64,000 nt of DNA from Thermoflexia bacterium (GTDB lineage: Bacteria; Chloroflexota; Anaerolineae; B4-G1; DUEL01), in the NCBI GenBank assembly GCA_011192125.1, contig DUEL01000019.1:2374-66373 (forward strand). Reading direction: 5' to 3'. Below the pieces are notes generated by a model, which saw nothing but the letters and a program-made list of their open reading frames with translations, was not told the DNA's origin and ran no database searches. Positions 1 through 61,400 of the stretch are shown piece by piece (position 1 is the first letter of the stretch; every line of letters starts with the position of its first letter). The position numbers and the translations under genes are program-made.

Positions 1-3000
1 CCGCCCCCCAGGCGACGAAGAGGACGGTGCGGGCCGGCCGATACCCCGTCTCCTTCCACGCCCGCGCCATCTCCAGCAGGGCCGCCACGCCGGACGCGTT
101 GTGGTTGGCCCCGGGGAACAGGAGACCGTCCGGAGCCCGCCCCACGTGGTCGTAATGGGCACCGATCAGCAACACTTCGTCCGTCAGTTCGGGATCGCTC
201 CCCGGCCAGAGACCGACCACGTTGGCGGTCAGCGTGGTGGTGAGGGGGGATCGGAGCAGGGTCAGCCGAAGACGGACCCCCAGCGGAAGGGCCGGTGGGG
301 AGGCCCGCACCTCCGCCAACGCCCACCCCGCCCGATCGAGCAGCCGCTCGAAGGCCGTCTCGGAGATGCGAAAGACGGGGACCGGGACCGCCGCCTGAGC
401 CGCCTCCCCCCCTGGCTCCAGGGGCTCCCGCGTCACCCAGACGACGCCTCTCGCCCCCCGTTCGACCAGTTGCGCCAGGCGGACCTGCGGATCGGACGGC
501 TCCTGTTCGATCACCACCGCCCCACCCAACCGCATCCCCTCCAGATCGGACGGCCGCACCCACACCAGATCGTCCTCCACCTCGCCTGCCCCACCCCACT
601 CCACGAAGTCGTCCCGGTAGGCCAACTCGAGAAGCGGCTCTCCCCTGTCGTTCAGCAGAACCAGCGAGGGGGTGGTCAGCACCTGAGTGAGGGAAATGGG
701 GAACCACTGAAGGTACCCTCGCGTCGCCGCCTCGGTGGCGGTGAGCGGGTCCCCCATCGGCTCCAGACCCAGCGCGGCGAACTGCTCGGCGATGTAGGCC
801 GCCGCGCGGTCCGCCCCGGGGGTCCCGGCCGCCCGGCCGTCGTAGTCCGAACCGGAGAGCACGGCGATGTCCTCCAGCGCCCGCTGCGGGTCGAACCGCT
901 GGGCCACCCCCACCAGATCCTCCGGCAGCCCACCGGCGAGGGCGTACTCCCGCCACGCATCCAGGAACGAAGCCGGGTCCACGCCCAGCGCCGCGGGCAA
1001 CGCCCGACTCAGGCTCCCCAACCGCACCGTTTCCGCCACCAATCGGTGCAGCGCAGCCATCCCGTACCGTGCGACGACGTAGTCGACCATCGACCAGGCC
1101 TGCGCCTGGGCCAACTCCACCTGGTCGTCGGGAAGGGATGCGAAGGACGAGAGCGCCTCCAGGGGAAGGTCTCGGTGGCGACGGACACCGTCCTGGGCCA
1201 CGGACGCGTATCGTTCCGCTACCCAGTGCTCCCCCAGCGGCACCGCCCTCCCCGCCTCGTAGGCCGCTACGCCCTCCAGCAGCCACGGATCCCGAAGCCC
1301 TCTGGCGAGGAGCACCTGGCGGGCGAGTCCGCGGGCGATCCCCTCCTGCAGATCTCCGCCGCCCAGCCACAACCGGATCGGCCCGGCTCCGTTCGAGGGG
1401 AGGGACAGGAACCGGAACAGCGATTCATCGTCGTAGGCTTCGATCACCTGCGGCAACCCCGGCTCGGCCCCCAGGTCGGCCGTGACCCGCCGGTAGGCCG
1501 CCTCGGCCATATCGAGCACGCGCTGCGTCCAGGTCGCGTCCTGCCCCCGGTACCTCAACACGAAGTGATCGCTGGCCCGCTCCTCCCAGTCCACCCCGGC
1601 GTAGCGCCACTCGCCGCCCTGGCGCACGAACCGCGCCTCGTAGGTCACCTCCAGTGGCCGTTCCCCAGAGAGGACCGACCGGGCGGTGAGGGCCACAACC
1701 GCCTCCGCGCTCCCCGGCGCCCAGCCGACGACCTGCCCGGATTCGGTGTAGGAGAGCACGGTACGGGCCTGCATGCCGACCAGCCAGTCCCGCTCCCCCG
1801 CCCGCAGGGCCGGGTCGTCGGCGACCAGGGTGGAGAGGAGCCGGTCGACGTCGCCGGTGCGGATCGCCTCGCTGCGAGATGCCAGCACATCCCGGATCGT
1901 TGCCGCGTCGGCCTGCGACGGCGCGAGCCACCCGGTCCGCCAGGCGGCTTCGACCTCCTCCGGGGAGAGTCCCAGGCCATCGCGGAACGCCCGGGCGGGG
2001 TCGCCCCACCTCCCCCAGGCCGCGCACAGCGACCGGAGCCCCTGTGTACCGAACCGGTCGAGGAGATAATCGACCAGCCCCCAGGCCGCACCCTGCGCAA
2101 GTGGGGAGGGATCGGTCCAGGATTCGATCTGGAGCGGAGAGGTAACGACTCGGGCAATGGAGAGCAGGGGAAGGAACCGACGGGGAGGGTCAGGCTCGTA
2201 CCGCAGAGCCAGCCCCTCCCGCAGCCAGGGGGCCTCCCCGGGCAGGAGCCCCATCTGGTTCAGCGCCAGGCTGACGAGGGCCGGGGTGATCGGCTCCCCC
2301 CAGGCGATCTCCACCTGTCCGGCAGAGGGAGCCAGCCAGCGCACCTCCCGGTCCGCCGCCGGGCGGGCGATGGCCCGCATCGTCGCGCCGTTGGGGTAGA
2401 AGATCACGCGGGCTCCGCGCGGCTCCAGCCCCAGGTCGGCCGCGATCCGCAGGTAGGCCCGCTCCGTCTCGGTGAGCAACTGTGCGGCCCCCACCGGCAC
2501 GTCGGGGAACCGGCCGACGGTCAGCGCCTCTCCCTCGGCGGTCTCCAGTTCCGGCCCGGCCAGATACCAGGCCCCGCCCCGCCGGACGAAGCGGATCTCG
2601 TAGGAGGCGGAGGAGGTGCGGCGCGGCGAGTCGGCCCAGGCGTAGGAGACGGTCAGATCGGCCCAGGCTTCTCCCTCCCCCACCCGGACCCGGTCCGGCT
2701 CCATCCGCACTTCGGTCAGATCGCGCGACCAGAGGTTGTCGAACCAGGCCGTCTGGGCGGCGATCAGGTCGGGATCGGTCGGGTCGATCAGAGCGAGGAA
2801 ACCCTGCCGGTCGCCCGTCGCCACCGCCGCCCACAGGCGGGCGACGGCCTCCTCCACGTCAATGTCGGCGTCGGCGAGGGCGGCCAGGGCGTGGGCGGCG
2901 ACGACGCCCGAGGCGCGCAGGTGCTCCGGGTTGATCGCCTCTACGGTGTCGTCGGGCGAGTGGTAGACGGGATCGGGCCACCAGATCGGCATCGCTGCTA

Positions 3001-4405
3001 GGACATCCGCCTCGATGAACGAGGCGTGGTCGCTGCGGCCGATGGAGGAATGGGTCGCCGTGATCCCGAAGGTCGACGCACTCACCAGCAACTGGGCGGC
3101 GACGGGGTCCTCCCCGTCGATCATCAGCGTCTCGCCGCCGCCCACCATATCGAGGTTCAACACCGCGACGGTCCGGGTGAGGGGCAGCAGAGGGTTCTCG
3201 ACGTAATACCGGGAGCCGAGAAGGCCCAGTTCCTCCCCGTCCCAGGCGGCAAAAAGGACAGTGCGCGCCGGTCGAAAGCCCGCGTCGTGCCAGACCCGGG
3301 CGATCTCCAGCATCGTCGCCACGCCGGACGCGTTGTCGTTGGCCCCGTGCATCACCGCCCCGTCCGGCTCCCGCCCCAGGTGGTCGTAGTGCGCGCCGAC
3401 GACCACCACCTCGTCCCGATGCTCAGGATCGGCCCCCAGCAGCAGCCCCAGCACGTTGCGGGCCTCCACCGCTTCTTTCTCCTCCACCCGCACCGCCATC
3501 CGCACGGTGGTCGAAAGGGGCGTGGCGGTGAAGCGGACGCTCAGGTCGTCCAGCGTGTAGTCGGTGCCGAGCAGGAGGTCCTGAGCCACCCGCTCCGAGA
3601 CGAGGTAGGCCGGGATCGTCTCCGGCACCCAGGCGATCTCCCGGTACGCCCCGCGACGGAAGAACGGCTCCTCCCGCTCCCAATCCACCAGGAGCAGCCC
3701 CGCCACCCCGTGCTCGATGGCCCGGCGGTAGACCTCTGGATCGGACCGATACCGGCAGAGGACGACCTTGCCCACCACGTCCTGCCCGAGGAAGGCGTCG
3801 TCGTCGCACCGGTTGAGCCAGACGACGGGCCCTTCTCCCTCGCCCGCGCCGACGTAGCCGCCGGTCAGCGCCCGGTAGTCGATGCGGTAGGCGTAGGTAT
3901 GGGTGAGCACCTCTCCGTCCGGCAGGACGATCTCCAGGAGCGGTAAATCGGTGATCCGGCCGTAGGGCAGAGTGAAGGTCTGGAAGTACGTGTGGTCCAG
4001 GCCCACTGGCTGCAGACCGTACTCGGCGAAGCGGGCGGCGATGTAGTTGCCAGCGGCCCGGCCGTCGGGCGTGCCCGCCTGCCGGCCACCGAGGTCGTCC
4101 GAGGCCAGGTAGGTGATGTGCTCCAACGCCCGCTCGACGTCGAAGCCCCGAGCCAGGTCCACGTGGTCGTCGGCGGGGACCGGTCCCTCACCGGCGATCG
4201 GCACAGGGGTCGGCGTCGGAGCCGGACGCGCCCCTCCGGGGACGACCGTGCGGGCGGAGGGGAGTTGGAACTGAGGAAGGGGCGTCGGCCCCGGTTCCCC
4301 GATCTCCATCGGTGGGAGACAGCCCGCCAGGCCCCCCAAGTAGAGGAGGGCCAGGAGGGTCACGACAAACAATCTTTGGTAGATCGGCGAGGGCGATCCA
4401 GACAT
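1..4405 (-). CDS. Giant secreted lipoprotein with two PA/M28 aminopeptidase modules; 3' end runs off the window (>1468 aa)
   Basis: Absent from the ORF track because no stop lies inside the window. The minus frame opened by ATG at 4405-4403 is shared by no listed minus ORF. N-terminus MSGSPSPIYQRLFVVTLLALLYLGGLAGC has a lipobox. M28 blocks VVVVGAHYDHLGREPDGAVMHGANDNASGVATMLEIARVW (~3290-3415) and LLIGAHYDHVGRAPDGLLFPGANHNASGVAALLEMARAW (~60-175) were both checked in frame with 4405. Confidence 0.8.
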   Translation of the reverse strand, partial: MSGSPSPIYQRLFVVTLLALLYLGGLAGCLPPMEIGEPGPTPLPQFQLPSARTVVPGGARPAPTPTPVPIAGEGPVPADDHVDLARGFDVERALEHITYLASDDLGGRQAGTPDGRAAGNYIAARFAEYGLQPVGLDHTYFQTFTLPYGRITDLPLLEIVLPDGEVLTHTYAYRIDYRALTGGYVGAGEGEGPVVWLNRCDDDAFLGQDVVGKVVLCRYRSDPEVYRRAIEHGVAGLLLVDWEREEPFFRRGAYREIAWVPETIPAYLVSERVAQDLLLGTDYTLDDLSVRFTATPLSTTVRMAVRVEEKEAVEARNVLGLLLGADPEHRDEVVVVGAHYDHLGREPDGAVMHGANDNASGVATMLEIARVWHDAGFRPARTVLFAAWDGEELGLLGSRYYVENPLLPLTRTVAVLNLDMVGGGETLMIDGEDPVAAQLLVSASTFGITATHSSIGRSDHASFIEADVLAAMPIWWPDPVYHSPDDTVEAINPEHLRASGVVAAHALAALADADIDVEEAVARLWAAVATGDRQGFLALIDPTDPDLIAAQTAWFDNLWSRDLTEVRMEPDRVRVGEGEAWADLTVSYAWADSPRRTSSASYEIRFVRRGGAWYLAGPELETAEGEALTVGRFPDVPVGAAQLLTETERAYLRIAADLGLEPRGARVIFYPNGATMRAIARPAADREVRWLAPSAGQVEIAWGEPITPALVSLALNQMGLLPGEAPWLREGLALRYEPDPPRRFLPLLSIARVVTSPLQIESWTDPSPLAQGAAWGLVDYLLDRFGTQGLRSLCAAWGRWGDPARAFRDGLGLSPEEVEAAWRTGWLAPSQADAATIRDVLASRSEAIRTGDVDRLLSTLVADDPALRAGERDWLVGMQARTVLSYTESGQVVGWAPGSAEAVVALTARSVLSGERPLEVTYEARFVRQGGEWRYAGVDWEERASDHFVLRYRGQDATWTQRVLDMAEAAYRRVTADLGAEPGLPQVIEAYDDESLFRFLSLPSNGAGPIRLWLGGGDLQEGIARGLARQVLLARGLRDPWLLEGVAAYEAGRAVPLGEHWVAERYASVAQDGVRRHRDLPLEALSSFASLPDDQVELAQAQAWSMVDYVVARYGMAALHRLVAETVRLGSLSRALPAALGVDPASFLDAWREYALAGGLPEDLVGVAQRFDPQRALEDIAVLSGSDYDGRAAGTPGADRAAAYIAEQFAALGLEPMGDPLTATEAATRGYLQWFPISLTQVLTTPSLVLLNDRGEPLLELAYRDDFVEWGGAGEVEDDLVWVRPSDLEGMRLGGAVVIEQEPSDPQVRLAQLVERGARGVVWVTREPLEPGGEAAQAAVPVPVFRISETAFERLLDRAGWALAEVRASPPALPLGVRLRLTLLRSPLTTTLTANVVGLWPGSDPELTDEVLLIGAHYDHVGRAPDGLLFPGANHNASGVAALLEMARAWKETGYRPARTVLFVAWGA

Positions 4406-4415
4406 AGGTTCTCAC

Positions 4416-4450
4416 ACGTGATACGTGATGCGTGATGCGCGGTGCGTGAG
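4416..4450. repeat. Heptanucleotide tandem array, 5 units (ACGTGAT ACGTGAT GCGTGAT GCGCGGT GCGTGAG)
   Basis: Read directly. Inverted copy of the array at 4985-5019. Lies between the start of the giant M28 gene and the stop of the four-helix-bundle gene. Confidence 0.85.
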
Positions 4451-4456
4451 TGGAGT

Positions 4457-4984
4457 CTAGGGTAAAGGTACATCACGCAAGAGAATTTCGAGGTCGTCAG
4501 GTTCATCAGTAGGAACGGTCTCCAAGACGGACGAAGTACCATACGGCACCGGGGCCTCGCCCAAAGTGCGGCCCCGCTGCTGGGGAATCATCGTCAAGAG
4601 CAAACGGATGACCTGAGTGAGAAGTCGTAGACGATGTGCAGTGACGGTAGGCCCTAGGATATGTCGGCCCTTGTAGTACCAATCCCGACTCTCACGGGCC
4701 GATCCCAGGGAATACTCGTAGAACCGCGCCCGATCTCGGCCCGAGCCGCGCGAATAGCCTTCAGCCAGATTGGCACTAATGGATCCAAGGGACCGATACA
4801 ACTGATCCGCCACCCCCCAGGTGCGCCGGTCCTTCATCAACTTGGTCACGTCATACCAGCCCAACTCTGCAGCAAACAGTGCCAATCGATATGCCTCCAT
4901 CCGCCACAGCACATCTCTTTTGAGTTCCTCAGGCACCGTACGTTCCCACTCCTCATACGTCATTTTCTCCTCCATCGACACCAT
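4457..4984 (-). CDS. Four-helix-bundle protein (23S rRNA intervening-sequence protein / Avd-like family)
   Basis: 175 aa. Family-typical core ADQLYRSLGSISANLAEGYSRGSGRDRARFYEYSLGSARESRDWYYKG. GC visibly lower than both flanks. Confidence 0.85.
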   Translation of the reverse strand: MVSMEEKMTYEEWERTVPEELKRDVLWRMEAYRLALFAAELGWYDVTKLMKDRRTWGVADQLYRSLGSISANLAEGYSRGSGRDRARFYEYSLGSARESRDWYYKGRHILGPTVTAHRLRLLTQVIRLLLTMIPQQRGRTLGEAPVPYGTSSVLETVPTDEPDDLEILLRDVPLP

Positions 4985-5019
4985 CTCACCTCACGTCTCA
5001 CGTATCACGCACCATATCA
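4985..5019. repeat. Heptanucleotide tandem array, 5 units (CTCACCT CACGTCT CACGTAT CACGCAC CATATCA)
   Basis: The reverse complement gives the ATACGTG-type units of the 4416-4450 array. Abuts the start codon of the four-helix-bundle gene and contains the stop of the permease-M28 gene. Confidence 0.85.
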
Positions 5020-7467
5020 GTACCTCGGCTCGTGCGCCGCCGTGATCAGGGTCAGGTTGACCACCTGGGCAGCACGGCTCAGGTGGTCGGCGTTCACCCG
5101 CTCCGCCGTGTCCTCAGCCAGGGCCGGGTCCGGGTCCCCCCAGGTGACGATGAGCGTGCCGTTCCGCCCCTGAAACAACTCCTGATATGGATGGAAGACC
5201 CGCCCGCCCTGCCCCACCGGCACGCCGAGGCGGCCCGCGCTGGCGGTGAAGAGATCGAGCAACTTGTTGAGCCCGCTCACCTGGCGGACCACCAGGCCCG
5301 GCCCCTCCCCTCCCAGCCGATCGAGGTGGATCACCGCCGAGAACCGGTACACCCCCACGAAGCCGGGGCGGTCCAGAAAAGCGTGCGCCCCCGAGTACTG
5401 GAGGTCGCCCCCGGCCCACGCGGCGAAGAGGACGCTGCGCCGTGGCTGGAACGACTGCTCCTGCCACAGCCGGGCGATCTCCAGCATCGTCGCCACGCCG
5501 GTCCCGTTCTCGTTGGCACCGGGATAGAGGGTGCCATCCAGCCCCCGCCCTGGTCCGTCGTAGTGAGCCGACACGACCACCAGGTCATCGGCCAACGCAG
5601 CATCGGCCCCGTCGAGCAGGGCCAGCACGTTGAGGAGGGCCACCGGCCTGGGCAACCCCAGCGCGACCCGCATCCGCACCCACGCCGAGAGGTCGCGCGC
5701 CACCCAGGGCACCTCCAGCTCCTCGGCCTCTGCCAGCAGGTCAGCCACCTGTAGCCCGTCCGCCGCGAGGATCGCGTCCGCCGTCTCCGGGGCGATGCGG
5801 AGGACCGGCAACTCCGGCCGCCCCAGGTCCTCCTCGGAGAGGATCTGATCGCGCGGATAGACGTCGGTGGAGACGATCAGCACCCCCTCCGCGCCGCGGA
5901 TCATCGCCTCCGTCTCGAAGTCGAACGGCGCGTTGCCCGCGATGAGCATCACCACCCGCCCCCGGAGGTCGAGCCCCCGATAGCGGGCGTAGGTCTCCAG
6001 CGACGGCGGGCGGCGAGCCTCGGAGGGGTGGAACAGGACAAGGGTCACCGGTCCCTCGGCCTCGCCGCTCCCCCCGTGCCGCTCCACGCTCTCGCCGAAG
6101 TCGGCGATGCGAGTGAAGGTCCGCACCACCCCACCCTCCCCGTCCAGCAGCGCCAGTTCCGGCGGCTCCACCGGATCGACCAGGGTAACCTCCACCTCGT
6201 CCAGCCACGCGGTCAGGCCGTAACTTACGAACTCGTCCCGGATGTACTCCGCCGCCCGGCGCGCCCCCTCCGTGCCGACACCCCGCCCTTCGAGATCGGG
6301 CGAGGCGAGGAACTGGACGTGGCGCATCAGGTCCTCCGCGCGTATCTGCTGGGCCAGGTGGCGGTAGGAGGGTGCGGGTCCCAGGGTCAGGATGACGTAG
6401 ACGCTGGCCGCCGAGATCAACCCGGCAGCGACCAGCGATCGCCAACCGAGCAGGACGCCGGTGTTGAACGACCCCCGCTCGATCAGCCGCCGCAATCCCT
6501 CTCCAAGGAGGTTGAAACCGGTCACGGCGATGAAGAAGGCCAGCGCGGGGTAGAGGATCATCCAGGGGCGGGACCGGGCCCAGGCGCGGGACCCGGCCAT
6601 CATCGCCCCCCACTCCGGCACGGTGAAGTACTGGCGACGGGCGAAGTCGTCCACCTGGATGGAGATGCCCCCGCCGATGTAGACGCCGAGGAACCCCAGT
6701 TCGCCCAGGATCATCAGCACTGCGCCCATCTCCAGCAGGGTGATGACGATCAGCGCGGGGAGGATGTTCGGCAACACGTGGCGCACCGCCAGTTGGAGGG
6801 GGGTCAGTCCGATCACGCGCCCGCTATCCAGGAAGGGCTCCTTCTTGATGCGGATGAACTCCGCCCGCACGTACTGGCCGATCTCTCCCCAGCCGATGAC
6901 GCAGAGGGCGACGATGAAGACGGGAAGACCGCGTCGGATGTCGAGGGCGAAGATGACGATCATCGCCACCAGGACCATCGGGAGGGAGGCGAGGACCTGG
7001 ACGGCCGCGGTCACGGCCCGGTCGATCAGACGGCCCTCATACCATCCTGCCAGGCCGCCGAGGATCAACCCCAGAGCCAACCGGGTCATCGTGATGAAAG
7101 CCGCGGCGACCAGCGTGTTGCGGGTACCGTAGAGGAGCATGCTCAGCGTATCGCGGCCCAACTCGTCGGTGCCCAGCGGGTGCTCGGGGGAGGGCGGGAA
7201 GGGCGGCCGGTAGAAGGTCCCCTCCCGGTACTCCAGCACCCTCCGCCCGTGGAGATAGGGGTTCTCCGGCGCCAGAAGGGGGCCGAAAAGGACGAGCAGG
7301 AAAAGTGCCAGGACGACGAACCCTCCGACAAGGAGCGGGAAGTTGAGGAGGACGTGCCGGAGTCGCACCCGCCGTTCGGGGACCTCGTCGGGCGGCCGGG
7401 TCCGCCGCAGCCGGGAGAGGTCGGCCCGGGGGTTCAGCAGCCGGCCGAGCGCGCGCAGCAGGCTCAC
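5017..7467 (-). CDS. Fusion: OppC/DppC-type ABC permease (N-terminal) + PA/M28 aminopeptidase (C-terminal, extracytoplasmic)
   Basis: 816 aa. Permease motifs PLGTDELGRDTLSMLLYGTRNTL and EPFLDSGRVIGLTPLQLAVRHVLPNILPALIV, then an extra TM helix. An M28 block VVVSAHYDGPGRGLDGTLYPGANENGTGVATMLEIARLW follows. Confidence 0.85.
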   Translation of the reverse strand: MSLLRALGRLLNPRADLSRLRRTRPPDEVPERRVRLRHVLLNFPLLVGGFVVLALFLLVLFGPLLAPENPYLHGRRVLEYREGTFYRPPFPPSPEHPLGTDELGRDTLSMLLYGTRNTLVAAAFITMTRLALGLILGGLAGWYEGRLIDRAVTAAVQVLASLPMVLVAMIVIFALDIRRGLPVFIVALCVIGWGEIGQYVRAEFIRIKKEPFLDSGRVIGLTPLQLAVRHVLPNILPALIVITLLEMGAVLMILGELGFLGVYIGGGISIQVDDFARRQYFTVPEWGAMMAGSRAWARSRPWMILYPALAFFIAVTGFNLLGEGLRRLIERGSFNTGVLLGWRSLVAAGLISAASVYVILTLGPAPSYRHLAQQIRAEDLMRHVQFLASPDLEGRGVGTEGARRAAEYIRDEFVSYGLTAWLDEVEVTLVDPVEPPELALLDGEGGVVRTFTRIADFGESVERHGGSGEAEGPVTLVLFHPSEARRPPSLETYARYRGLDLRGRVVMLIAGNAPFDFETEAMIRGAEGVLIVSTDVYPRDQILSEEDLGRPELPVLRIAPETADAILAADGLQVADLLAEAEELEVPWVARDLSAWVRMRVALGLPRPVALLNVLALLDGADAALADDLVVVSAHYDGPGRGLDGTLYPGANENGTGVATMLEIARLWQEQSFQPRRSVLFAAWAGGDLQYSGAHAFLDRPGFVGVYRFSAVIHLDRLGGEGPGLVVRQVSGLNKLLDLFTASAGRLGVPVGQGGRVFHPYQELFQGRNGTLIVTWGDPDPALAEDTAERVNADHLSRAAQVVNLTLITAAHEPRY

Positions 7468-20312: not shown

Positions 20313-20551
20313 CAGGCCTTCCTCCCTGCAAAGCCACACTCCAACCCTTGCACCACACCGCGGTCCACATACCACAGCAACCGCCCGGATCGAGGCTGTA
20401 TCCGTTCTGCCGGCAGGGCTGCCCCGTCGAGTGCGCGGGCCAGGGCCTCCGCCTTATCCCGCCCCGCCACCAGAAAGAGCACCTCCGCGTCTGCCACTTC
20501 TTCCCTCCTCCATCTGCGCCATAGAGACACAGAGGACACAGCGGCTCTCAA
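20312..20551 (-). pseudogene. pgl: C-terminal remnant of 6-phosphogluconolactonase (about the last 55 aa)
   Basis: AEVLFLVAGRDKAEALARALDGAALPAERIQPRSGRLLWYVDRGVV matches the conserved Pgl/DevB C-terminus. The N-terminal residues of the ORF (SSVSLWRRW) are encoded by the palindromic repeat at 20521-20588. Its stop overlaps the kinase ATG. Confidence 0.55.
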
Positions 20552-20588
20552 TTCCTGAGAACACTCTGTGTCCTCTGTGTCTCTGTGG
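20521..20588. repeat. Palindromic intergenic element, CTCTGTGTC family (full hairpin)
   Basis: ATAGAGACACAGAGGACACAG ... CTCTGTGTCCTCTGTGTCTCTGTGG. The arms are inverted copies built from 8-9-mer tandem units. Confidence 0.85.
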
Positions 20589-28027: not shown

Positions 28028-29508
<1,481 letters not shown>

Positions 29509-30905: not shown

Positions 30906-32435
30906 ATGAGCATCCACATCACCCTTCCCCGATGGCCCTGGGAGCCGATCCGCGCCATTGCCGACCGGCGCGGGGTCGCCATCTGGCCAGTGGGCGGCAT
31001 CGTGCGGGACATGCTGCTGGGCCGTCCCCTGCACGATTGGGACTTCGCCGTCGAGCGGGACGCGATGGGGCTGGCCCGCGCCGTCGCCGACGCCCTTGAC
31101 GGAGCGTATTTCCCACTGGACGAGGAGCGGGACACGGCACGGGTGGTGGTGCGCGATCGGCGCGGCCGCCGGGTCGAACTGGACTTCGCCAGGCTGCGCG
31201 GGGAGACCCTCCTGGCCGATCTGCGGGGTCGAGACTTCACCCTCAACGCGATGGCAGTGGAGCCGGAGGGAGTGTTGATCGACCCCCTCGGAGGACTGGC
31301 CGACCTGCAGGCCCGGCTTGTCCGCGCCATCGGCCCCCAGGCCTTCGACGCCGATCCCCTCCGGATGCTGCGGGCCGTCCGACTGGCGGCCGAACTGGAG
31401 ATGCGGTTGGAGGCCAAGACGGCCGCCTGGATCATCCAGCGGGCCGAGAGCCTCACCCAGGCCTCACCGGAACGGATCCGCGACGAGTTCGTCCGCATCC
31501 TCGCCACCCCCTCCCCCGCCGAACACGTCCACATGCTGGACGAGTTGCGGCTGCTGGCCCAGGTGATCCCCGAGGTGGACCCTCTCAAGGAGCAGCCTCA
31601 ATCCCCTCCGCACCGGTTCGACGTCTGGTGGCACACGCTGCTGGTGATCGACGCGGTGGCGGGCATCCTCGACATCGTGTATGGCCGCCCCCCCTTCCCC
31701 CGCCTGTACGCCGACACGACGGAGCAGGCCTGGGACGACGTGAAAACCCTACTGGGGCCGTTCGTCCCCCACCTGCGCCGCCACCTCTCCGTCCGACTGC
31801 GAGGAGGAAGAAAGCGTCGGGTCCTTCTGGTGCTGGCCGCTCTCTGTCACGACCTGGGCAAGCCGGTCACCTGCACTGAGGACGACCAGGGGCGCCTCCA
31901 CTTCTACGGCCACGAGCGGGAGGGGGCCAAGATCACGACCCGTCGGCTGCGCCACCTGCGTTTCAGTCAATCGGAGGTGAAGCGGGTCGCCACGGTGGTC
32001 CGCGCCCACCTACGACCGGGCCACCTGGCGCGGGTCCAGGGCCCGGTGACCCGCCGGGCGATCTACCGCTTCTTCCGGGATACCGGCAGCGCGGGCGTCG
32101 AGGTCAACCTGCTGAGCCTGGCCGACCACCTCGCCACCTGGGGACCCAACCTGGAGCCGGACCGCTGGGCGCGGCGGCTGGAGGTCGGTCGGTTGCTCCT
32201 GAGCCACTACTTCGAGCGGCACGAGGAGACCATCGCGCCGAAGCCGCTGGTGGACGGGCGGGAACTGATCGAGAGCCTGGGGATCGAGGAGGGTCCCCAG
32301 GTCGGGCGACTGCTGGCGGCGATCCGGGAGGCACAGGCGGCGGGAGAGGTGCGCACGCGGGAGGAGGCATTGGCCCTCGCCCGTCGATTAAAGGGGAAAG
32401 GCGCAGAGGACGCAGAGGAACCCCCGAGAGATTGA
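30906..32435 (+). CDS. cca: CCA-adding tRNA nucleotidyltransferase / poly(A) polymerase family with HD domain
   Basis: VGGIVRDMLLGRPLHDWDFAV, RDFTLNAMAV, DPLRMLRAVRLAAEL, HD region CHDLGKP. C-terminal KGKGAEDAEE is encoded by a repeat arm. Confidence 0.85.
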   Translation: MSIHITLPRWPWEPIRAIADRRGVAIWPVGGIVRDMLLGRPLHDWDFAVERDAMGLARAVADALDGAYFPLDEERDTARVVVRDRRGRRVELDFARLRGETLLADLRGRDFTLNAMAVEPEGVLIDPLGGLADLQARLVRAIGPQAFDADPLRMLRAVRLAAELEMRLEAKTAAWIIQRAESLTQASPERIRDEFVRILATPSPAEHVHMLDELRLLAQVIPEVDPLKEQPQSPPHRFDVWWHTLLVIDAVAGILDIVYGRPPFPRLYADTTEQAWDDVKTLLGPFVPHLRRHLSVRLRGGRKRRVLLVLAALCHDLGKPVTCTEDDQGRLHFYGHEREGAKITTRRLRHLRFSQSEVKRVATVVRAHLRPGHLARVQGPVTRRAIYRFFRDTGSAGVEVNLLSLADHLATWGPNLEPDRWARRLEVGRLLLSHYFERHEETIAPKPLVDGRELIESLGIEEGPQVGRLLAAIREAQAAGEVRTREEALALARRLKGKGAEDAEEPPRD

Positions 32436-34599: not shown

Positions 34600-34812
34600 T
34601 CCAAACCTCCTCCTGGAGTATGATCCCTAAGGTGGGCTCATTATATTCTCCCCCCTTCCTGTGTCAACTTCACCCTTGACACCACACCGAAATTGGAATA
34701 AGATAATGATGCACCTGGACAATTGGATCCCCTGTCCTCCGACCCACTTCGCTCCCTCTGGGACGGGTGGGCGATAAGGTGTGGGGAGCAATTCCCACGC
34801 CCGCCGTATTTG

Positions 34813-34867
34813 CAAAGGAGGCTTTCCACCGACCGATGAACCCGCCGGTCGGCGAGGGCCTCCTTTG
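34813..34867 (+). other. Perfect 10-bp-stem nested hairpin in the AOR leader
   Basis: CAAAGGAGGC ... CCGACCG-loop-CGGTCGG ... GCCTCCTTTG, ~50 nt upstream of the AOR start. Function unknown. Confidence 0.4.
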
Positions 34868-34917
34868 TTGCTTTATGACGCGTGTCGTTTCCAGAGGTTG
34901 TACGAAAGGAGGTCAAT

Positions 34918-36660
34918 ATGCCGAAGATCCTGCGCGTCAACATGACGGATCGGACCGCAACCTACGAAGACGTGCCAGAGAGGTACAAGTTCCTCGGCGG
35001 CCGTGGCCTCACCTCCACCATCGTCTACGACGAAGTCGATCCGACCTGCCATCCCCTGGGTCCGAACAACAAACTGGTCTTCGCCCCCGGCATCGTCACC
35101 GGCACCAACGCACCCACCAGCGGGCGGGTCTCCGTCGGCGGGAAGTCCCCTCTCACCGGCGGCATCAAGGAGTCCAACGCTGGCTCCTCCTGGGTACAGG
35201 CGGTCGCCAAACTGGGCATCAAGGCCATCATCGTCGAGGGCTTCCCCAAGGAGAGCGGCTGGTGGGGCCTGTACATCACCAAGGACGGCGTCGAGTTCTT
35301 CCCCGCCGACGAGTACGCCGGCAGGGGCCTCTACGAGGTCTACCCACAACTGTTCGAGCGCTTCGGCAAGAAGGCCCACATCTGCTCCATCGGCGTGGCC
35401 GGTGAGATGAAGATGGCGATGGCCGGCGTCTGCTTCAACGACAACCACGGTCGGCCCAGCCGGTACTCCGGCCGCGGCGGCCTCGGCGCGGTGATGGGGT
35501 CCAAGGGGCTGAAGTTCATCGTCGTCGACGACACTGGGGCCCCTGGCGTAGAGATCGCCAACCCGGACCTCTTCAACCAGGGTCGCAAGAAACTGCTGGA
35601 AGCGCTTCGCCAGCACGACATCACGAAGCCGAAGGGCGGCCTGAACACCTATGGCACCGCCATCCTGGTCAACATCATCAACGAGGCAGGCGGCTACCCC
35701 ACCCGCAACTTCCGCGAGGGCCGCTTCGAGGGCGCAGCGGCCACCTCCGGCGAGGCGATCTTCGAGAACAACAAGAAGCGGCTGGGCAAGGAACTGTACA
35801 ACCACGCCTGCCATCCCGGCTGCGTCATCCAGTGCTCCAACACCTACTACGACGAGAAGGGCAACGAGATCGTCTCCTGCATCGAGTACGAGACCACCTG
35901 GGCGCTGGGGGCCAACTGCGGGATCGATAACCTGGAGGCCATCGGCAAACTGACCTGGCTCTGCAACGACCTGGGTCTGGACACCATCGAAGCGGGCGGC
36001 ACCATCGCCGTGGCGATGGACGCGGGGCTCCTGTCCTTCGGCGACTGGGAGGGTGCCATCCGACTGCTGGACGAAGAGGTCCGCAAGGGGACCCCGCTCG
36101 GCCACATCATCGGCAACGGCGCGGCCTTCACCGGCAAAGCCTTCGGCTGGTACCGCGTCCCCGGCGTCAAGGGGCAGAACATGCCCGCCTACGAGCCGCG
36201 CGCCATCAAGGGCATCGGCATCACCTACGCCATCAGCACGATGGGCGCCGATCACACCTCCGGCTACACCATCGCGCCGGAGATCCTCGGCGTGGGCGGC
36301 AAGGTGGATCAGTTCGACGTCAACAAAGCGGAACTGGCGCGCAATTTCCAGTACACCACCGCCTTCATCGACACCACCGGTCACTGCCTGTTCATCGCCT
36401 TCGCCATCCTGGACATCCCCAGCGGCTTCGAGGGAATGGTGGAGGAATGCGCCGGCCTCCTGGGCGCAGACTGGACCCCGGACGACGCAGCCCGCATCGG
36501 CAAGGAGATCATCGACCGCGAGTTGGCTTTCAACCGCGCGGCTGGCTTCACCAAGTCGGACGACCGGCTGCCGGAGTTCATGAAATACGAGAAACTACCG
36601 CCTCACAACGTCGTCTGGGACGTGCCCGACGAGGTGCTGGACGCCGTCTTCGGCGAGTGA
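34918..36660 (+). CDS. aor: Aldehyde:ferredoxin oxidoreductase (tungstopterin enzyme family)
   Basis: Start at MPKILRVNMTDRTATYEDVP behind AAAGGAGG. GGRGLTS, GRVSVGGKSPLTGGIKESNAGS, and a C-terminal AFOR domain. Confidence 0.9.
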   Translation: MPKILRVNMTDRTATYEDVPERYKFLGGRGLTSTIVYDEVDPTCHPLGPNNKLVFAPGIVTGTNAPTSGRVSVGGKSPLTGGIKESNAGSSWVQAVAKLGIKAIIVEGFPKESGWWGLYITKDGVEFFPADEYAGRGLYEVYPQLFERFGKKAHICSIGVAGEMKMAMAGVCFNDNHGRPSRYSGRGGLGAVMGSKGLKFIVVDDTGAPGVEIANPDLFNQGRKKLLEALRQHDITKPKGGLNTYGTAILVNIINEAGGYPTRNFREGRFEGAAATSGEAIFENNKKRLGKELYNHACHPGCVIQCSNTYYDEKGNEIVSCIEYETTWALGANCGIDNLEAIGKLTWLCNDLGLDTIEAGGTIAVAMDAGLLSFGDWEGAIRLLDEEVRKGTPLGHIIGNGAAFTGKAFGWYRVPGVKGQNMPAYEPRAIKGIGITYAISTMGADHTSGYTIAPEILGVGGKVDQFDVNKAELARNFQYTTAFIDTTGHCLFIAFAILDIPSGFEGMVEECAGLLGADWTPDDAARIGKEIIDRELAFNRAAGFTKSDDRLPEFMKYEKLPPHNVVWDVPDEVLDAVFGE

Positions 36661-39916: not shown

Positions 39917-40177
39917 TTAGGTCGCGCTGCTCCCACCGCCTACGGGCGGGTTCGCCAATAGACCCAGATCCCCGATCCCTGTCGCGCTGCTCCCACCGCC
40001 TACGGGCGGGTTCGCCAGCAGGTCCGAGCCCCCGACCCCCGTCGCGCTGCTCCCACCACCTACGGGCGGGTTGGCCAGCAATCCTACCGAGCGCGAATCA
40101 CCGATGCCCAGCACGAAGGCTGCCACCAGCACCGTCACGACGACGATCACTACAAACCGGCCCAGTCCTCTGTCCAT
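39917..40177 (-). CDS. Exported 86-aa peptide with three tandem LLANPPVGGGSSATG repeats
   Basis: Strong SD AAGGAGGGAGGG. N-terminal hydrophobic signal/anchor FVVIVVVTVLVAAFVLG. Three in-frame 20-codon repeats run to the stop codon. Confidence 0.7.
   Translation of the reverse strand: MDRGLGRFVVIVVVTVLVAAFVLGIGDSRSVGLLANPPVGGGSSATGVGGSDLLANPPVGGGSSATGIGDLGLLANPPVGGGSSAT
39921..40077 (-). repeat. 3 x 60-bp tandem repeat (37-bp conserved core + ~23-bp variable linker)
   Basis: Cores at 39921-39957, 39981-40017 and 40041-40077. Copies 1 and 2 are identical over 37 nt; copy 3 differs at 2 positions. Confidence 0.9.
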
Positions 40178-43528: not shown

Positions 43529-43618
43529 GGTGGGACTCCTACACTGCCTTACAAGACCTATGCGGTTCCCGATACAGGCACACAGAGCACTCGGAGTGTT
43601 CCAACCCGCCTACCAGGA

Positions 43619-46446: not shown

Positions 46447-47066
46447 CCGAGGTGATCCGTGCGAGCGAAAAAGGAGCGGTGGAACGGGCCGCCGAGGTAC
46501 TCCGCGATGGCGGCTTGGTCGTCTTTCCGACCGATACCGTCTACGGCCTGGCAGCACACCCGGGCGATCGCCAAGCGGTCGCCCGGATTTACGAGGCGAA
46601 GGGACGGAACACCAGCCGCCCCATCGCCCTGCTGCTTTCCGACCTCGAACATCTCCCGACGGTTGCCGTGTTGCCGGATCCGATCCTGCCCCTAACCCGT
46701 CGCTTCTGGCCCGGGGGCCTGACGCTGGTGCTGCCCAAGACCGAAGCGGTGCCCCCCGTCGTAAGCCCTGGTCCTACAGTCGGCGTCCGTATCCCCGACC
46801 TGGACCTGGCGAGGGCCATCATCCGGGCCGCAGGGGGCGTATTGGCGGTCACCAGCGCCAACCTTTCCGGACAACCCGCCGCGCTGACGGCCCAAGAGGC
46901 GCTGGAACAACTGGAAGGGCGGGTAGAGTTGATCGTGGACGGAGGCCCATGCCAAGGCGGTGTCCCCTCCACAGTGGTAGACTGCACCGTCTGGCCGCCG
47001 GCCATCCTGCGGGAGGGGGCCATCCCCGAGACAGAGATCCAGGCGGCCCTGACGTTTGACAAATGA
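46440..47066 (+). CDS. tsaC: L-threonylcarbamoyladenylate synthase (YrdC/TsaC type)
   Basis: GTG start overlapping the prmC stop. LVVFPTDTVYGLAA, VTSANLSGQP. The last 5 codons lie in the heptamer array. Confidence 0.85.
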   Translation: MVTEVIRASEKGAVERAAEVLRDGGLVVFPTDTVYGLAAHPGDRQAVARIYEAKGRNTSRPIALLLSDLEHLPTVAVLPDPILPLTRRFWPGGLTLVLPKTEAVPPVVSPGPTVGVRIPDLDLARAIIRAAGGVLAVTSANLSGQPAALTAQEALEQLEGRVELIVDGGPCQGGVPSTVVDCTVWPPAILREGAIPETEIQAALTFDK

Positions 47067-47119
47067 CGTATGACGTATGACGTATGACACACGACGCATG
47101 ACCCACGATACAAGATACC
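47050..47119. repeat. Heptanucleotide tandem array, ~10 units of TGACGTA type
   Basis: TGACGTT TGACAAA TGACGTA x3 TGACACA CGACGCA TGACCCA CGATACA AGATACC. Contains the tsaC stop codon. Confidence 0.9.
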
Positions 47120-52102: not shown

Positions 52103-52129
52103 CGAATACACTCCTCACCTTATGGGTTT

Positions 52130-52204
52130 CCATCACAGAGACACAGGGAACCCAGAAGGCTGGCAGACCCCTGTGTCTCCTGTGTCTCCTGTGTCTCTGT
52201 TGTG
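52130..52204. repeat. Palindromic intergenic element, CTCTGTGTC family
   Basis: CCATCACAGAGACACAGGGAAC ... CCTGTGTCTCCTGTGTCTCCTGTGTCTCTGTTGTG. Confidence 0.85.
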
Positions 52205-61330: not shown

Positions 61331-61337
61331 CCCTCCC

Positions 61338-61400
61338 TGACCTCTGACGTTTGACGCTTGACGTATGACGCTTGACGCCCGACGTTTGACGCCTGATTAT
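61338..61400. repeat. Heptanucleotide tandem array, 9 units of TGACGYN type
   Basis: TGACCTC TGACGTT TGACGCT TGACGTA TGACGCT TGACGCC CGACGTT TGACGCC TGATTAT, immediately upstream of the moaB/mog start. Confidence 0.9.

What the first reader, a model, noticed from the sequence alone, without database searches (positions are those of the whole stretch)
4416..5019. Low-GC four-helix-bundle (Avd / rRNA-IVS protein family) gene precisely bracketed by inverted heptanucleotide arrays
Five tandem heptamers (ACGTGAT type) lie at 4416-4450. Five more (CACGTAT type, their reverse complement) lie at 4985-5019. Together they flank a 175-aa gene whose GC content is visibly below that of the surrounding operon.

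The cassette sits between two functionally related M28 genes. Its right array contains the stop codon of the upstream gene. This looks like an insertion of a discrete module with array-type terminal inverted repeats, an arrangement I do not recognise from described mobile elements. The family includes the DGR accessory protein Avd, but no reverse transcriptase or template/variable repeat pair is visible here.
Basis: partly seen in the sequence, partly recalled or inferred. Interest (0 to 1): 0.65.

Follow-up and report, generated by a model that had tools for sequence, protein, structure and literature searches.

The report
Repeat-bracketed four-helix-bundle gene cassette in operon
A small conserved gene of the "23S rRNA intervening-sequence protein" family, bracketed by mirror-image runs of 7-base repeats, has been dropped between two co-transcribed peptidase genes; the same cassette occurs in at least ten bacterial phyla and looks like a messenger-RNA version of the selfish inserts known from ribosomal RNA genes.

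Summary
Window 4411-4450 and 4982-5019 carry inverted arrays of the heptamer RCGTGAN. They bracket a 168-aa PF05635/TIGR02436 four-helix-bundle (4HB) gene with GC3 of 0.63, against about 0.9 in the flanking genes.

It is a discrete insertion/deletion unit. A co-occurring strain joins 4432 directly to 5017, and syntenic relatives have tight gene junctions with no 4HB gene.

It is one copy of a widespread cassette. Of 82 homologous loci from at least ten phyla, 78 have such arrays and 55 have them on both sides. About 85% lie co-oriented between operon genes such as coxS-coxL and PDH E1-E2. Other 4HB subfamilies carry inverted arrays of other heptamers or of octamers.

Because each unit holds TGA or TAA and 7 is coprime to 3, the arrays close all three reading frames facing inward. 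Upstream genes usually stop in phase with the array.

The closest described relative is the S23p-encoding 23S rRNA intervening sequence (Coxiella: heptameric repeats, a 28-bp terminal stem, RNase III excision).

How the arrays work is unresolved: RNA stem, or binding sites for the pentameric protein. G:U pairs show no strand bias. No reverse transcriptase or transposase was found in the ORFs tested.

Verdict: a new variant of a known kind; interest 0.72.

The parts
5017..7467 (-). Upstream host gene: ABC-transporter permease (BPD_transp_1, OppC_N) fused to an M28 peptidase domain, 816 aa. Its TGA stop is at 5019-5017.
   Evidence: Relatives at 47-93% identity are listed.
4982..5019 (-). 5' array (U). 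On the sense (-) strand it reads TGATATG GTG CGTGATA CGTGAGA CGTGAGG TGAGATG. TGA occurs in all three frames (offsets 1, 13, 20, 27, 32).
4967..4973 (-). Shine-Dalgarno-like GGAGGAG, 4-10 nt upstream of the 4HB start codon.
   Evidence: Read directly. Leaders of this family are 72% purine.
4457..4963 (-). Four-helix-bundle protein gene, 168 aa (PF05635 / TIGR02436; S23p/Avd family). The ORF is also open from an earlier ATG at 4984.
   Evidence: The sequence relatives in the PDB, 2gsc and 2rld, each have 5 chains.
4411..4450 (-). 3' array (D). On the sense strand it reads CTCACGC ACCGCGC ATCACGC ATCACGT ATCACGT GTGAG. On the + strand (reading inward) TGA occurs in all three frames, at 4419, 4426 and 4433.
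   Evidence: A length variant with an extra TGCGTGAT is seen in run X6.
4433..5016 (.). The 584-nt segment that is absent from a co-occurring strain. It is the indel unit: the 5' array, the gene and the inner 2.5 units of the 3' array.
   Evidence: An 81-nt unitig in run X3 joins 4432 to 5017 at depth 5.7; the filled allele has depth 3-4.
1..4405 (-). Downstream host gene. ATG at 4405, lipoprotein-like signal, two M28 domains plus Peptidase_MA_2. About 1600 aa in the full contig; it runs off the window start.
47049..47105 (+). Solitary array of a related heptamer (TGACGNN, 8 units) with no 4HB gene. The TsaC/Sua5-like ORF reads two units into it and stops at the TGA of the third unit (47064-47066). 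The array lies about 40 nt upstream of the next gene's ATG (47147).
61335..61396 (-). Solitary array. On the + strand it reads TGACGYN (about 8 units). On the - strand it reads CGTCA, followed by a Shine-Dalgarno sequence and the mogA-like ATG (about 61331).

Best explanation
**What it is.** This is one copy of a chromosomal "stem-loop ORF" cassette. Its closest described relative is the S23p-encoding intervening sequence (IVS) of 23S rRNA. Here it sits in a messenger-RNA operon instead of an rRNA gene.

**Composition (shown).**
- A 5' array of RCGTGAN heptamers.
- A purine-rich ribosome-binding site.
- A conserved 168-aa four-helix-bundle (4HB) gene.
- A 3' array that is the reverse complement of the 5' array.
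- No sigma-70-like promoter or intrinsic-terminator-like site was found by consensus scan.

**Shown here.**
- It is a discrete insertion/deletion unit located exactly at the junction of two co-oriented genes.
- The family is spread over at least ten phyla, with the same layout.
- Other 4HB subfamilies have the same layout with different 7- or 8-base units.
- Each 5' unit contains TGA or TAA. Because the period is not a multiple of 3, the arrays close all three reading frames facing inward. The interrupted upstream gene therefore always terminates, usually at a stop codon in phase with the array.
- The gene is transcribed together with downstream host sequence in sponge metatranscriptome contigs.

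**Inferred.**
- The cassette rides on the host operon's transcript.
- The two arrays pair into a stem of about 28-35 bp. This loops out the 4HB ORF and brings the upstream stop codon next to the downstream start codon.
- By analogy with S23p IVSs, the stem is probably an RNase III substrate. Alternatively, or in addition, it may preserve translational coupling across the insert.
- The pentameric 4HB protein probably acts on the arrays.

**Unknown.** How the cassette moves. It encodes no recombinase.
For: **Anatomy.**
- Sequence and repeats.
- The minimum-free-energy RNA fold of 4400-5030 (-) pairs the two arrays (z = -3.1; 0 of 20 shuffles fold as well).
- No promoter-like or terminator-like sites in 4200-5300.

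**Discreteness.**
- Run X3 holds an allele that joins 4432 to 5017.
- In the Poribacteria locus L046, an allele joins 2957 to 3519. It restores an ATGA stop/start overlap and contains no arrays.
- Syntenic relatives L091, L094 and L097 lack the gene and have tight junctions.

**Family-wide pattern.**
- 477 relatives were found in species-representative genomes.
- Of 82 loci, 55 have arrays on both sides, 11 upstream only, 12 downstream only and 4 none. The background is 39 arrays in 380 kb.
- Neighbours are co-oriented in 63 of 74 (upstream) and 66 of 78 (downstream) loci.
- Examples inside obvious operons: coxS-coxL, PDH E1-E2, kdtA-lpxK, hisS-aspS.
- The unit flavour matches between the two sides of a locus: 0.78 against 0.51 when loci are shuffled, z = 7.5.
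- In 43 of 60 loci the upstream stop codon is in phase with the array. The 3' array ends a median of 12 nt before the next start codon. Median cassette length is 598 nt.
- All three frames are closed within 45 nt in 82% of loci on the sense 5' side (22% when shuffled) and in 74% on the antisense 3' side (7% when shuffled). Facing outward, the figures are only 6-9%.

**Other subfamilies.**
- L028 paralogue: GCGAAT / ATTCGC heptamers.
- L034, L098 and L099 paralogues: octamers TTRGTTCA, RGTCAATG and GGAAATTA, each with its reverse complement downstream.

**Precedent.** The Coxiella IVS has an S23p ORF, tandem GACAGAT heptamers whose copy number varies between strains, and a 28-bp terminal stem cut by RNase III in vitro (PMC4990558).

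**Transcription.** Contigs from runs X38, X40 and X41 span the 4HB gene, the 3' array and the downstream gene.
Against: - There is no excess of G:U over A:C at mismatched array positions: 60 against 74, p = 0.26. Sense and antisense duplex energies are equal (-37.2 and -37.7 kcal/mol).
- The order of unit variants in one array is not mirrored in the other (mean z = 0.16, p = 0.41).
- So nothing ties the complementarity specifically to the sense RNA, or to a fixed pairing register.
- RNA contigs read through the 3' array. This shows that transcripts uncut at the 3' array exist. The data are contigs, not reads, and DNA carry-over cannot be excluded.
- Copies within one genome are only 68-73% identical, so there are no recent transposition bursts.
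- Arrays also occur alone, as ORF-less hairpins, and around a response-regulator gene and an IS3 element.
- L004 has the cassette at the same junction, so this copy may be old.
- No mobility enzyme has been identified.
Confidence: 0.55

Rival explanations
1. **Iteron or REPIN-RAYT-like model.** The arrays act at the DNA level as multi-site binding platforms for the toroidal 4HB pentamer, roughly one unit per subunit. The protein is a domesticated factor that recognises ends or binds the nucleoid. It maintains, spreads or regulates a genome-wide population of array hairpins. Its own gene is flanked by those arrays, as RAYT genes are flanked by REPs. No RNA stem is needed.
For: - There is no strand asymmetry in wobble pairs, and the order of unit variants is not mirrored between the two arrays.
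- Arrays are typically 4-5 units long, and the solved family members have 5 chains. XCC0516 is described as a homopentameric toroid in PMC4990558.
- ORF-less arrays near a cassette share its unit flavour: 0.265 against 0.179, z = 2.9.
- CGTCA-flavour cassettes have each other as nearest protein relatives.
- Each 4HB subfamily has its own unit.
- In Geobacter metallireducens, paired tandem-repeat sites between operon genes were proposed to be protein-binding sites (PMC2700814).
Against: - No nucleic-acid binding has been shown for any non-DGR member of the family.
- Within the octamer subfamily, proteins that are 58-66% identical to the query paralogue have unrelated units (TTRGTTCA, RGTCAATG, GGAAATTA). 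This is hard to reconcile with sequence-specific recognition.
- The window's two solitary arrays are of a different flavour from its cassette, and no second 4HB gene lies in the 64 kb.
- The protein has no recognisable catalytic domain.
Confidence: 0.25
2. **RNA-mediated mobility.** The looped-out cassette RNA is copied by a reverse transcriptase supplied in trans, with the Avd-like protein as its cofactor. The terminal arrays are products of reiterative, telomerase-like copying of a short template. The cDNA then enters operon junctions by recombination.
For: - Avd is the obligatory partner of the DGR reverse transcriptase (own knowledge; PMC10053308 was listed).
- Inverted tandem arrays at both ends are the geometry expected from 3'-end reiterative extension (inference).
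- The cassettes are strongly co-oriented with host transcription.
- Neither empty-site comparison shows a target-site duplication.
- Array copy number varies between strains (PMC4990558).
Against: - No reverse transcriptase was found in the 20 largest other ORFs of the window or in any locus with gene calls.
- No poly-A or other retro-signature is present.
- Co-orientation is equally explained by the need of a promoterless gene to be transcribed.
- Slippage during ordinary replication explains the variation in copy number.
Confidence: 0.07
3. **Ancestral gene with incidental repeats.** The 4HB gene is an ordinary, vertically inherited member of the peptidase operon, and the flanking microsatellites arose incidentally. 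It is not an inserted module. A variant of this view is that it is a decayed DGR that has lost its reverse transcriptase.
For: - The cassette sits at the same junction in L004, whose flanking genes are 68-74% identical and whose 4HB protein is 74% identical.
- The protein is under strong purifying selection.
- 4HB GC content partly tracks host GC.
Against: - Alleles without the cassette exist in two species.
- Relatives with tight junctions lack the gene.
- The same cassette is found in unrelated operons across phyla.
- Finding arrays at 78 of 82 loci cannot be incidental.
- No template/variable repeat pair or reverse transcriptase is present.
Confidence: 0.04

Closest known systems
S23p-encoding intervening sequences (IVS) of 23S rRNA (Coxiella burnetii, Leptospira, Brucella, Xanthomonas)
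   Same: - The same protein family (PF05635, S23p) is encoded in the loop of a stem formed by terminal inverted repeats.
- It lies in the sense orientation within a host transcript.
- In Coxiella, tandem heptameric repeats (GACAGAT, copy number variable between strains) lie upstream of the ORF, and a 28-bp terminal stem is present.
- It is regarded as a selfish element, possibly once mobile (PMC4990558).
   Different: - Here the host transcript is a protein-coding operon, not 23S rRNA. Rfam finds no rRNA in the window.
- Both ends are made entirely of tandem arrays.
- The protein has an extra C-terminal tail of about 45 aa that ends in LLxxVPLP.
- The gene has a good ribosome-binding site and is strongly conserved, whereas the Coxiella ORF is decaying.
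- RNase III cleavage has not been tested here.
Avd, the accessory protein of diversity-generating retroelements
   Same: Distant membership of the same four-helix-bundle family. Both are reported as pentameric rings, and both are small basic helical proteins.
   Different: No adjacent reverse transcriptase, no template/variable repeat pair and no target gene. The genomic context is housekeeping operons.
REPIN-RAYT systems (REPtrons) of proteobacteria (own knowledge)
   Same: - A conserved, low-copy gene is flanked by inverted copies of the same short repeat.
- That repeat is also dispersed as hairpin doublets in the intergenic spacers of the same genome.
- The repeat flavour is genome-specific.
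   Different: The gene here is not an HUH/Y1 transposase. The repeats are tandem arrays of 7- or 8-mers, not REP palindromes.
Paired inverted tandem-repeat sites of Geobacter metallireducens (classes 1-3: octamer, nonamer, heptamer)
   Same: Three to five tandem units occur on opposite strands, about 100 nt apart, between consecutive operon genes such as nifD-nifK and proB-proA. They are also targets of IS elements (PMC2700814). They resemble the ORF-less hairpins seen here.
   Different: No ORF lies between the Geobacter pairs. They were interpreted as IHF/HU or global-regulator binding sites. No link to 4HB genes was reported.
Correia/NEMIS and ERIC miniature elements (own knowledge); heptamer direct repeats of Beggiatoaceae (TAACTGA) and cyanobacteria (STRR)
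   Same: - These are intergenic repeats that are co-transcribed with the flanking genes.
- Correia inverted repeats form RNase III-sensitive hairpins in mRNA.
- TAACTGA heptamers sit just upstream of start codons (PMC4679880).
   Different: Those elements carry no ORF. Correia and ERIC ends are unique inverted repeats with target-site duplications. The TAACTGA and STRR repeats are direct arrays, not inverted pairs.

Membership tests
PF05635 / TIGR02436 four-helix-bundle (S23p) protein family | A profile HMM score above the curated cut-off. | tested here: met
   PF05635: 52 bits, cut-off 33.8. TIGR02436: 59.6 bits, cut-off 24.
PF05635 / TIGR02436 four-helix-bundle (S23p) protein family | An all-helical four-helix-bundle fold that assembles into a pentameric ring. 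| tested here: inconclusive
   The AlphaFold2 model is all-helical but of low confidence (pLDDT 53.5), so it was not used for a fold search. A profile hit to PDB 2gsc (E = 1.4e-5) and a hit to 2rld each involve an entry with 5 chains. Oligomeric state cannot be tested with these tools.
DGR accessory protein Avd | Encoded next to a DGR reverse transcriptase, with a template repeat, a variable repeat and a target gene. | tested here: not met
   No RVT domain in the 20 largest other ORFs of the window, nor in the gene calls of L001, L004-L006 and L098-L100. No long direct repeat pair lies within 4380-5060.
S23p-bearing 23S rRNA intervening sequence | Inserted in a helix of the 23S rRNA gene. | tested here: not met
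   The element lies between two protein-coding genes. Rfam finds only a tRNA and a Moco riboswitch in the window.
S23p-bearing 23S rRNA intervening sequence | An S23p ORF enclosed by terminal inverted repeats that can form a stem of 20 bp or more; in Coxiella, also heptameric repeats. | tested here: met
   Arms of 28-30 nt that are 73-79% complementary. The minimum-free-energy fold pairs them. Both ends are heptamer arrays. Comparison with PMC4990558.
S23p-bearing 23S rRNA intervening sequence | Excision from the transcript by RNase III. | not testable with these tools
   Only assembled RNA contigs were available. They span the 3' array and break at the 5' array edge in three runs, which is not decisive.
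Classical DNA transposon / MITE | Target-site duplication, a transposase (or many near-identical non-autonomous copies) and unique terminal inverted repeats. | tested here: not met
   Neither empty/filled comparison shows a duplication; the microhomology at the window junction is 1 nt. No transposase is present. Copies within one genome are 68-73% identical. The ends are tandem arrays.
REPIN-RAYT (REPtron) | The gene is flanked by inverted copies of a repeat that is also dispersed as hairpin doublets. | tested here: met
REPIN-RAYT (REPtron) | The flanked gene encodes an IS200/IS605-like Y1 (HUH) transposase. | tested here: not met
   The only Pfam hit is PF05635.
Integron gene cassette | An attC recombination site and a nearby integron integrase with attI. 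| tested here: not met
   No integrase was found in the ORFs tested from the window. The cassettes lie singly in unrelated operons. attC structure was not modelled.

The most novel reading that the evidence does not exclude
PF05635 four-helix-bundle genes and their inverted tandem arrays form a previously unrecognised class of transposase-less mobile module. The toroidal pentamer reads the repeat units as iterons. Either it recruits host machinery to copy or excise the stem-loop, or the arrays are laid down by reiterative synthesis. The classical 23S rRNA intervening sequences would then be the special case in which this module landed in rRNA. The dispersed ORF-less array hairpins, including the Geobacter "global regulator sites", would be its non-autonomous derivatives.
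Probability: 0.2. Interest if true: 0.88.

Novelty: new variant of a known kind. Interest (0 to 1): 0.72.

Why it matters
- **Origin of rRNA intervening sequences.** Where 23S rRNA intervening sequences came from, and what S23p/Avd-like proteins do outside DGRs, have stayed open since the 1990s. If the same stem-loop ORF module populates messenger-RNA operon junctions in at least ten phyla, the IVS stops being an rRNA oddity and becomes one landing site of a general element. Thousands of natural filled and empty sites then become available for study.
- **Design features.** The cassette shows how a selfish insert can be made harmless inside an operon. It has no detectable promoter or terminator. 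It carries inward-facing stop codons in all three frames, because the repeat period is coprime to 3. Its ends are complementary and can loop it out.
- **Annotation.** Upstream genes often end inside the array, and gene callers start the 4HB gene within the repeats. Both cause annotation errors.
- **Tools.** The layout could inspire insulated, operon-neutral insertion cassettes.
- **A testable ligand.** The repeats give the four-helix-bundle family a concrete, testable candidate ligand.

Tried and rejected
1. **Metagenome scan.** I searched with the N-terminus of the downstream gene to find empty sites. Empty sites were found instead through read and contig laying, and through homologues of the upstream gene.
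2. **Rfam.** Nothing at the locus, even at E <= 1.
3. **Defence and phage libraries.** No PADLOC or PHROG hit. No tblastn hit in PLSDB plasmids or INPHARED phages, and no relative in IMG/VR. No vehicle for horizontal transfer was identified.
4. **Structure prediction.** From a 27-sequence alignment the model reached only pLDDT 53.5. It was not used for a fold search.
5. **Tests for a sense-strand RNA stem.** All were negative or neutral:
   - G:U against A:C asymmetry.
   - Sense against antisense duplex energy.
   - Mirrored order of unit variants.
   - Pairing of the 4HB leader with the pyrimidine-rich ORF tail, compared with shuffles.
6. **Promoter in the arrays.** The consensus scan found none.
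7. **DGR reading.** Rejected for lack of a reverse transcriptase or a template/variable repeat pair.
8. **Recent acquisition inferred from low GC.** Rejected as insufficient, because the GC deficit is family-wide.
9. **Literature.** Five full-text searches found no description of 4HB genes bracketed by repeat arrays outside the Coxiella IVS.
Full report
**1. The observation**

- The + strand at 4416-4450 reads ACGTGAT ACGTGAT GCGTGAT GCGCGGT GCGTGAG. At 4985-5019 it reads CTCACCT CACGTCT CACGTAT CACGCAC CATATCA, which is the reverse complement type.
- Tandem Repeats Finder reports both: 4417-4449 with 4.7 copies, and 4990-5009 with 2.9 copies.
- The arms 4417-4444 and 4982-5009 are 79% complementary over 28 nt.
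- A motif scan finds four arrays of this kind in the window. Shuffled sequence gives 0.06.
- Between the two arrays lies an ORF on the - strand, 4457-4984, of 175 aa. Homologues support a start at 4963, giving 168 aa. It matches PF05635 (23S_rRNA_IVP) and TIGR02436 (four helix bundle protein) above their cut-offs.
- The segment is 56% GC inside 70% GC flanks. Its GC3 is 0.63, against 0.90 and 0.88 in the flanking genes.
- The upstream gene (5017-7467, -) is an ABC permease fused to an M28 peptidase. The downstream gene starts at 4405, carries two M28 domains, and runs off the window.

**2. It is a discrete insertion/deletion unit**

Three lines of evidence agree.

- *An empty allele in the same population.* In a subsurface metagenome that holds this organism (run X3), an 81-nt unitig at depth 5.7 joins 4432 directly to 5017, skipping 584 nt. 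The filled allele is present at depth 3-4. On the coding strand the empty allele reads TGA|CGCATCACGTATCACGTGTGAGAACCT-ATG. That is the upstream stop codon, about 2.5 downstream-type units, and the next start codon. Only 1 nt of microhomology lies at the junction, so this is not a collapse of the assembly graph across a repeat.
- *An empty allele in Poribacteria.* At the homologous cassette L046, a sponge metagenome contig (X51, depth 10.6, against 44.9 for the filled form) joins 2957 to 3519, with CAA between the two sides. This allele reads ...TCA TTC AAA TGA TTA... It is a classical ATGA stop/start overlap of the two flanking genes, with no arrays at all. In that case the arrays arrived with the cassette, and the cassette landed in a translationally coupled junction.
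- *Syntenic relatives.* Homologues of the permease-M28 gene in L091/L092 (77% identity), L094 (70%) and L097 (63%) show the order permease-M28, Tricorn-like beta-propeller gene(s), then the double-M28 gene. Their junctions are tight (TGAaATG, an ATGA overlap) and contain no 4HB gene.

L004 (76%) does have the 4HB cassette directly upstream of the double-M28 gene, with 8 clean units on each side. Its flanking proteins are 68% and 74% identical to the window's, and its 4HB protein is 74% identical. L091 and L004 are 79% identical to each other. The tree therefore does not say whether this junction was hit once and later lost the cassette, or was hit twice.

**3. It is one copy of a very widespread cassette**

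- The protein has 6296 database homologues at E <= 1e-5. The best 120 are 64-82% identical.
- A scan of one genome per species found 477 relatives. The best 80, at 57-75% identity, come from Chloroflexota (the majority), Verrucomicrobiota, Poribacteria, Acidobacteriota, Calditrichota, Ignavibacteria, Rhodothermales, Marinimicrobia, Latescibacterota, Desulfobacterota, Lentisphaerota and Armatimonadota.
- Among 82 loci with usable flanks, 55 have arrays of three or more units on both sides in the expected orientation: RCGT[G/A/C]AN upstream and its reverse complement downstream. A further 11 have the upstream array only, 12 the downstream array only, and 4 have none. The rest of the same loci holds 39 arrays in 380 kb, which is roughly a 60-fold enrichment.
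- Arrays are typically 4-5 units long.
- The cassette spans a median of 598 nt.
- Neighbours are co-oriented in about 85% of loci. This comes from a crude longest-ORF call that errs towards underestimating co-orientation.
- Several sites are obvious operons: coxS-coxL (L005) and pyruvate dehydrogenase E1-E2 (L006).
- The protein tree is star-like: within-phylum identity is 0.675 and between-phylum identity 0.646. Copies within one genome are 68-73% identical, so there are no recent bursts.
- No copy was found on plasmids, phages or viral contigs.
- 4HB GC content follows host GC (r = 0.80, slope 0.70) but is lower by 0.058 on average, and by up to 0.14 in GC-rich hosts.

**4. The bracket is a property of the protein family, not of one repeat sequence**

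- A diverged paralogue in L028 is flanked by GCGAAT-type heptamers upstream and ATTCGC-type heptamers downstream.
- A classical paralogue of about 130 aa in L034 is flanked by four TTRGTTCA octamers upstream and TGAACCAA downstream.
- Relatives of that paralogue lie between kdtA-like and lpxK (L098: RGTCAATG x4 upstream, CATTGACT downstream) and between hisS and aspS (L099: GGAAATTA-type x4 upstream, CAATTTCC x9 downstream).
- The published Coxiella IVS has GACAGAT heptamers upstream of its S23p ORF (PMC4990558).
- What is conserved is the architecture: tandem units of 7 or 8 bases, in inverted orientation at the two ends.

**5. A translational feature follows directly from the sequence**

- Each upstream unit of the main family contains TGA or TAA. 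Because 7 is not a multiple of 3, three consecutive units put a stop codon in every frame.
- In 43 of 60 loci the upstream gene's stop codon is exactly in phase with the array: the distance from the stop codon to the first scored unit is 1 mod 7. So the array, or a degenerate outer unit of it, supplies the stop.
- Within 45 nt, all three frames are closed in 82% of loci on the sense 5' side (22% after shuffling). The figure is 74% on the 3' side read inward on the opposite strand (7% after shuffling). Read outward, only 6-9% are closed.
- In the window, TGA falls in all three frames in both arrays. The host stop at 5019-5017 abuts the array but is not in phase with it.
- The 3' array ends a median of 12 nt before the next gene's start codon.
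- The octamer units TTAGTTCA, AGTCAATG|AG and GGAAATTA|GG also carry a stop codon in each unit.
- CGTCA-flavour heptamers and the L028 unit do not, so the rule is frequent but not universal.

**6. What the arrays do mechanically is not settled**

*In favour of pairing.*
- The two arrays of a locus share their unit flavour far more than arrays of different loci do. At unit position 5 the match is 0.78 against 0.51, z = 7.5.
- Same-locus duplexes average -37 kcal/mol, against -31 for cross-locus pairs.
- The minimum-free-energy fold of the window cassette pairs the arrays (z = -3.1).
- ORF-less neighbours form near-perfect hairpins of -30 to -82 kcal/mol.
- The homologous rRNA element is cut by RNase III in its terminal stem.

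*Against a specifically sense-RNA constraint.*
- Mismatches compatible with G:U do not outnumber A:C mismatches (60 against 74, p = 0.26). Sense and antisense duplex energies are equal.
- The order of unit variants is not mirrored between the arrays.
- The pyrimidine-rich ORF tail does not pair with the purine-rich leader better than shuffled tails do. There is, however, a real synonymous pyrimidine bias in the C-terminal P-L-P codons: 0.74 against 0.50, p = 4e-7.

*Transcript data.*
- No sigma-70-like promoter or intrinsic-terminator-like site lies in 4200-5300.
- Sponge metatranscriptome contigs cover the 4HB gene and run through the 3' array into the downstream gene. In three runs they break at the outer edge of the 5' array. 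These are assembled contigs, so transcript ends cannot be read from them.

*In favour of the arrays being protein-binding sites.*
- Arrays are typically 4-5 units long, and solved relatives are pentameric.
- ORF-less arrays near a cassette share its flavour (z = 2.9).
- CGTCA-flavour cassettes cluster together in the protein tree.
- Against this, the octamer subfamily has unrelated units at 58-66% protein identity.

**7. Best reading**

This is an IVS-type selfish or domesticated cassette that lives in operon spacers.

- *Shown:* its boundaries, its presence/absence polymorphism, its distribution across phyla, its co-orientation with host genes, the all-frame stop codons, and the array bracket across subfamilies.
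- *Inferred:* co-transcription without its own promoter; looping-out by array pairing, with RNase III processing and/or preserved translational coupling; and action of the pentamer on the arrays.
- *Unknown:* how it moves. There is no target-site duplication and no recombinase.

It is not a DGR. No reverse transcriptase, integrase or transposase was found in the 20 largest other ORFs of the window, which are ordinary housekeeping and signalling genes. No second 4HB gene lies in the 64 kb.

**8. Arrays without the gene**

- The window holds two solitary arrays of a related unit, TGACGNN.
  - At 47049-47105 the TsaC/Sua5-like ORF reads into the array and stops at the TGA of its third unit.
  - At 61335-61396 the array, read on the - strand, sits directly upstream of the Shine-Dalgarno sequence and ATG of a mogA-like gene.
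- Related loci hold ORF-less U-D hairpins, arrays around a response-regulator gene, and arrays around an IS3 element.
- The empty allele in run X3 looks just like such a solitary array. Solitary arrays may therefore be scars or targets. I could not tell which.
- The nearest published analogues are the paired inverted tandem-repeat sites between operon genes of Geobacter metallireducens (PMC2700814).

**9. Novelty**

Five full-text searches found no account of four-helix-bundle genes bracketed by inverted repeat arrays in operons. The Coxiella paper describes heptameric repeats and a terminal stem in the rRNA IVS. I therefore rate the finding as a new variant of a known kind, with interest 0.72.

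Noticed in passing
window 20520-20587, 28158-28240, 52120-52197; solitary at 32402-32419 and 57550-57568: A second family of intergenic tandem arrays with a 9-base unit (GGACACAGA / TCTGTGTCC). Three of the sites are inverted pairs that form hairpins, and one of these lies just after the tRNA at 28028-28100. No associated gene was identified.
   Followed up: partly
L089 5452-5973 (hydrothermal-vent Chloroflexota MAG; its permease-M28 protein is 93% identical to the window's): At the same operon junction, right after the permease-M28 stop codon, this closest relative carries a different small cassette: a DUF559/MTES_1575 endonuclease-like ORF bracketed by copies of the palindrome CCCCCTCCCCCGCTTGCGGGGGAGGGG. 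The contig ends there, so what follows is unknown.
   Followed up: partly
L095 5545-5895; L091 3640-3720; L093 5557-5580: Other junctions of the same operon in relatives hold other repeat elements. L095 has five tandem palindromic units of about 62 nt. L091 has a hairpin of a different heptamer (CGGAACA... / ...TGTTGCG). L093 has a three-unit solitary array (TGCGTGG TGCGTAA TGCGTGA) right after the stop codon.
   Followed up: no
4HB family, last codons of the ORF (window about 4460-4471): The conserved C-terminal Pro-Leu-Pro codons show a synonymous pyrimidine bias: third-base C or T at 0.74, against 0.50 for Pro and Leu codons elsewhere in the gene (p = 4e-7). The result is a CCCCTTCCC-like tract opposite a leader that is 72% purine. 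Predicted leader:tail pairing is no better than for shuffled tails.
   Followed up: yes
L023 5913-6443: A second complete 4HB cassette lies 2.4 kb downstream of the first in the same locus. Its upstream units are CGTGA type, but its downstream units are TGACG type, so the two are not complementary at unit position 5.
   Followed up: partly
L055 1611-2980; L081 upstream flank: In L055 an IS3-family element sits between an upstream-type and a downstream-type array, next to the 4HB gene of Candidatus Leptofilum. This recalls the IS110/IS481 insertions at the Geobacter paired sites. L081 has an upstream array of 27 units.
   Followed up: no
L046 position 3003: The Poribacteria chromosome record carries one extra base near the start of its 4HB gene, which causes a frameshift. 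Contigs in one RNA run (X40) and two other runs (X51, X52) lack this base, so it is either an assembly error or a strain-specific pseudogene.
   Followed up: partly
window 39921-40080: A 60-nt tandem repeat, 2.7 copies and 89% matching, in an intergenic stretch upstream of a large TPR/BTAD regulator gene (40319-43609, -).
   Followed up: no
window 47147-48894 (+): A single ORF fuses an APS kinase domain to a class-III aminotransferase domain.
   Followed up: no
window 34725-34836 (+): A Moco/tungsten riboswitch (RF01055, 40 bits) lies directly upstream of an aldehyde:ferredoxin oxidoreductase gene (34879-36660). This is an expected pairing.
   Followed up: no
window 4416-4449 in run X6: A contig carries an expanded 3' array with an extra TGCGTGAT between two array stretches. 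This shows array-length polymorphism in natural populations.
   Followed up: partly
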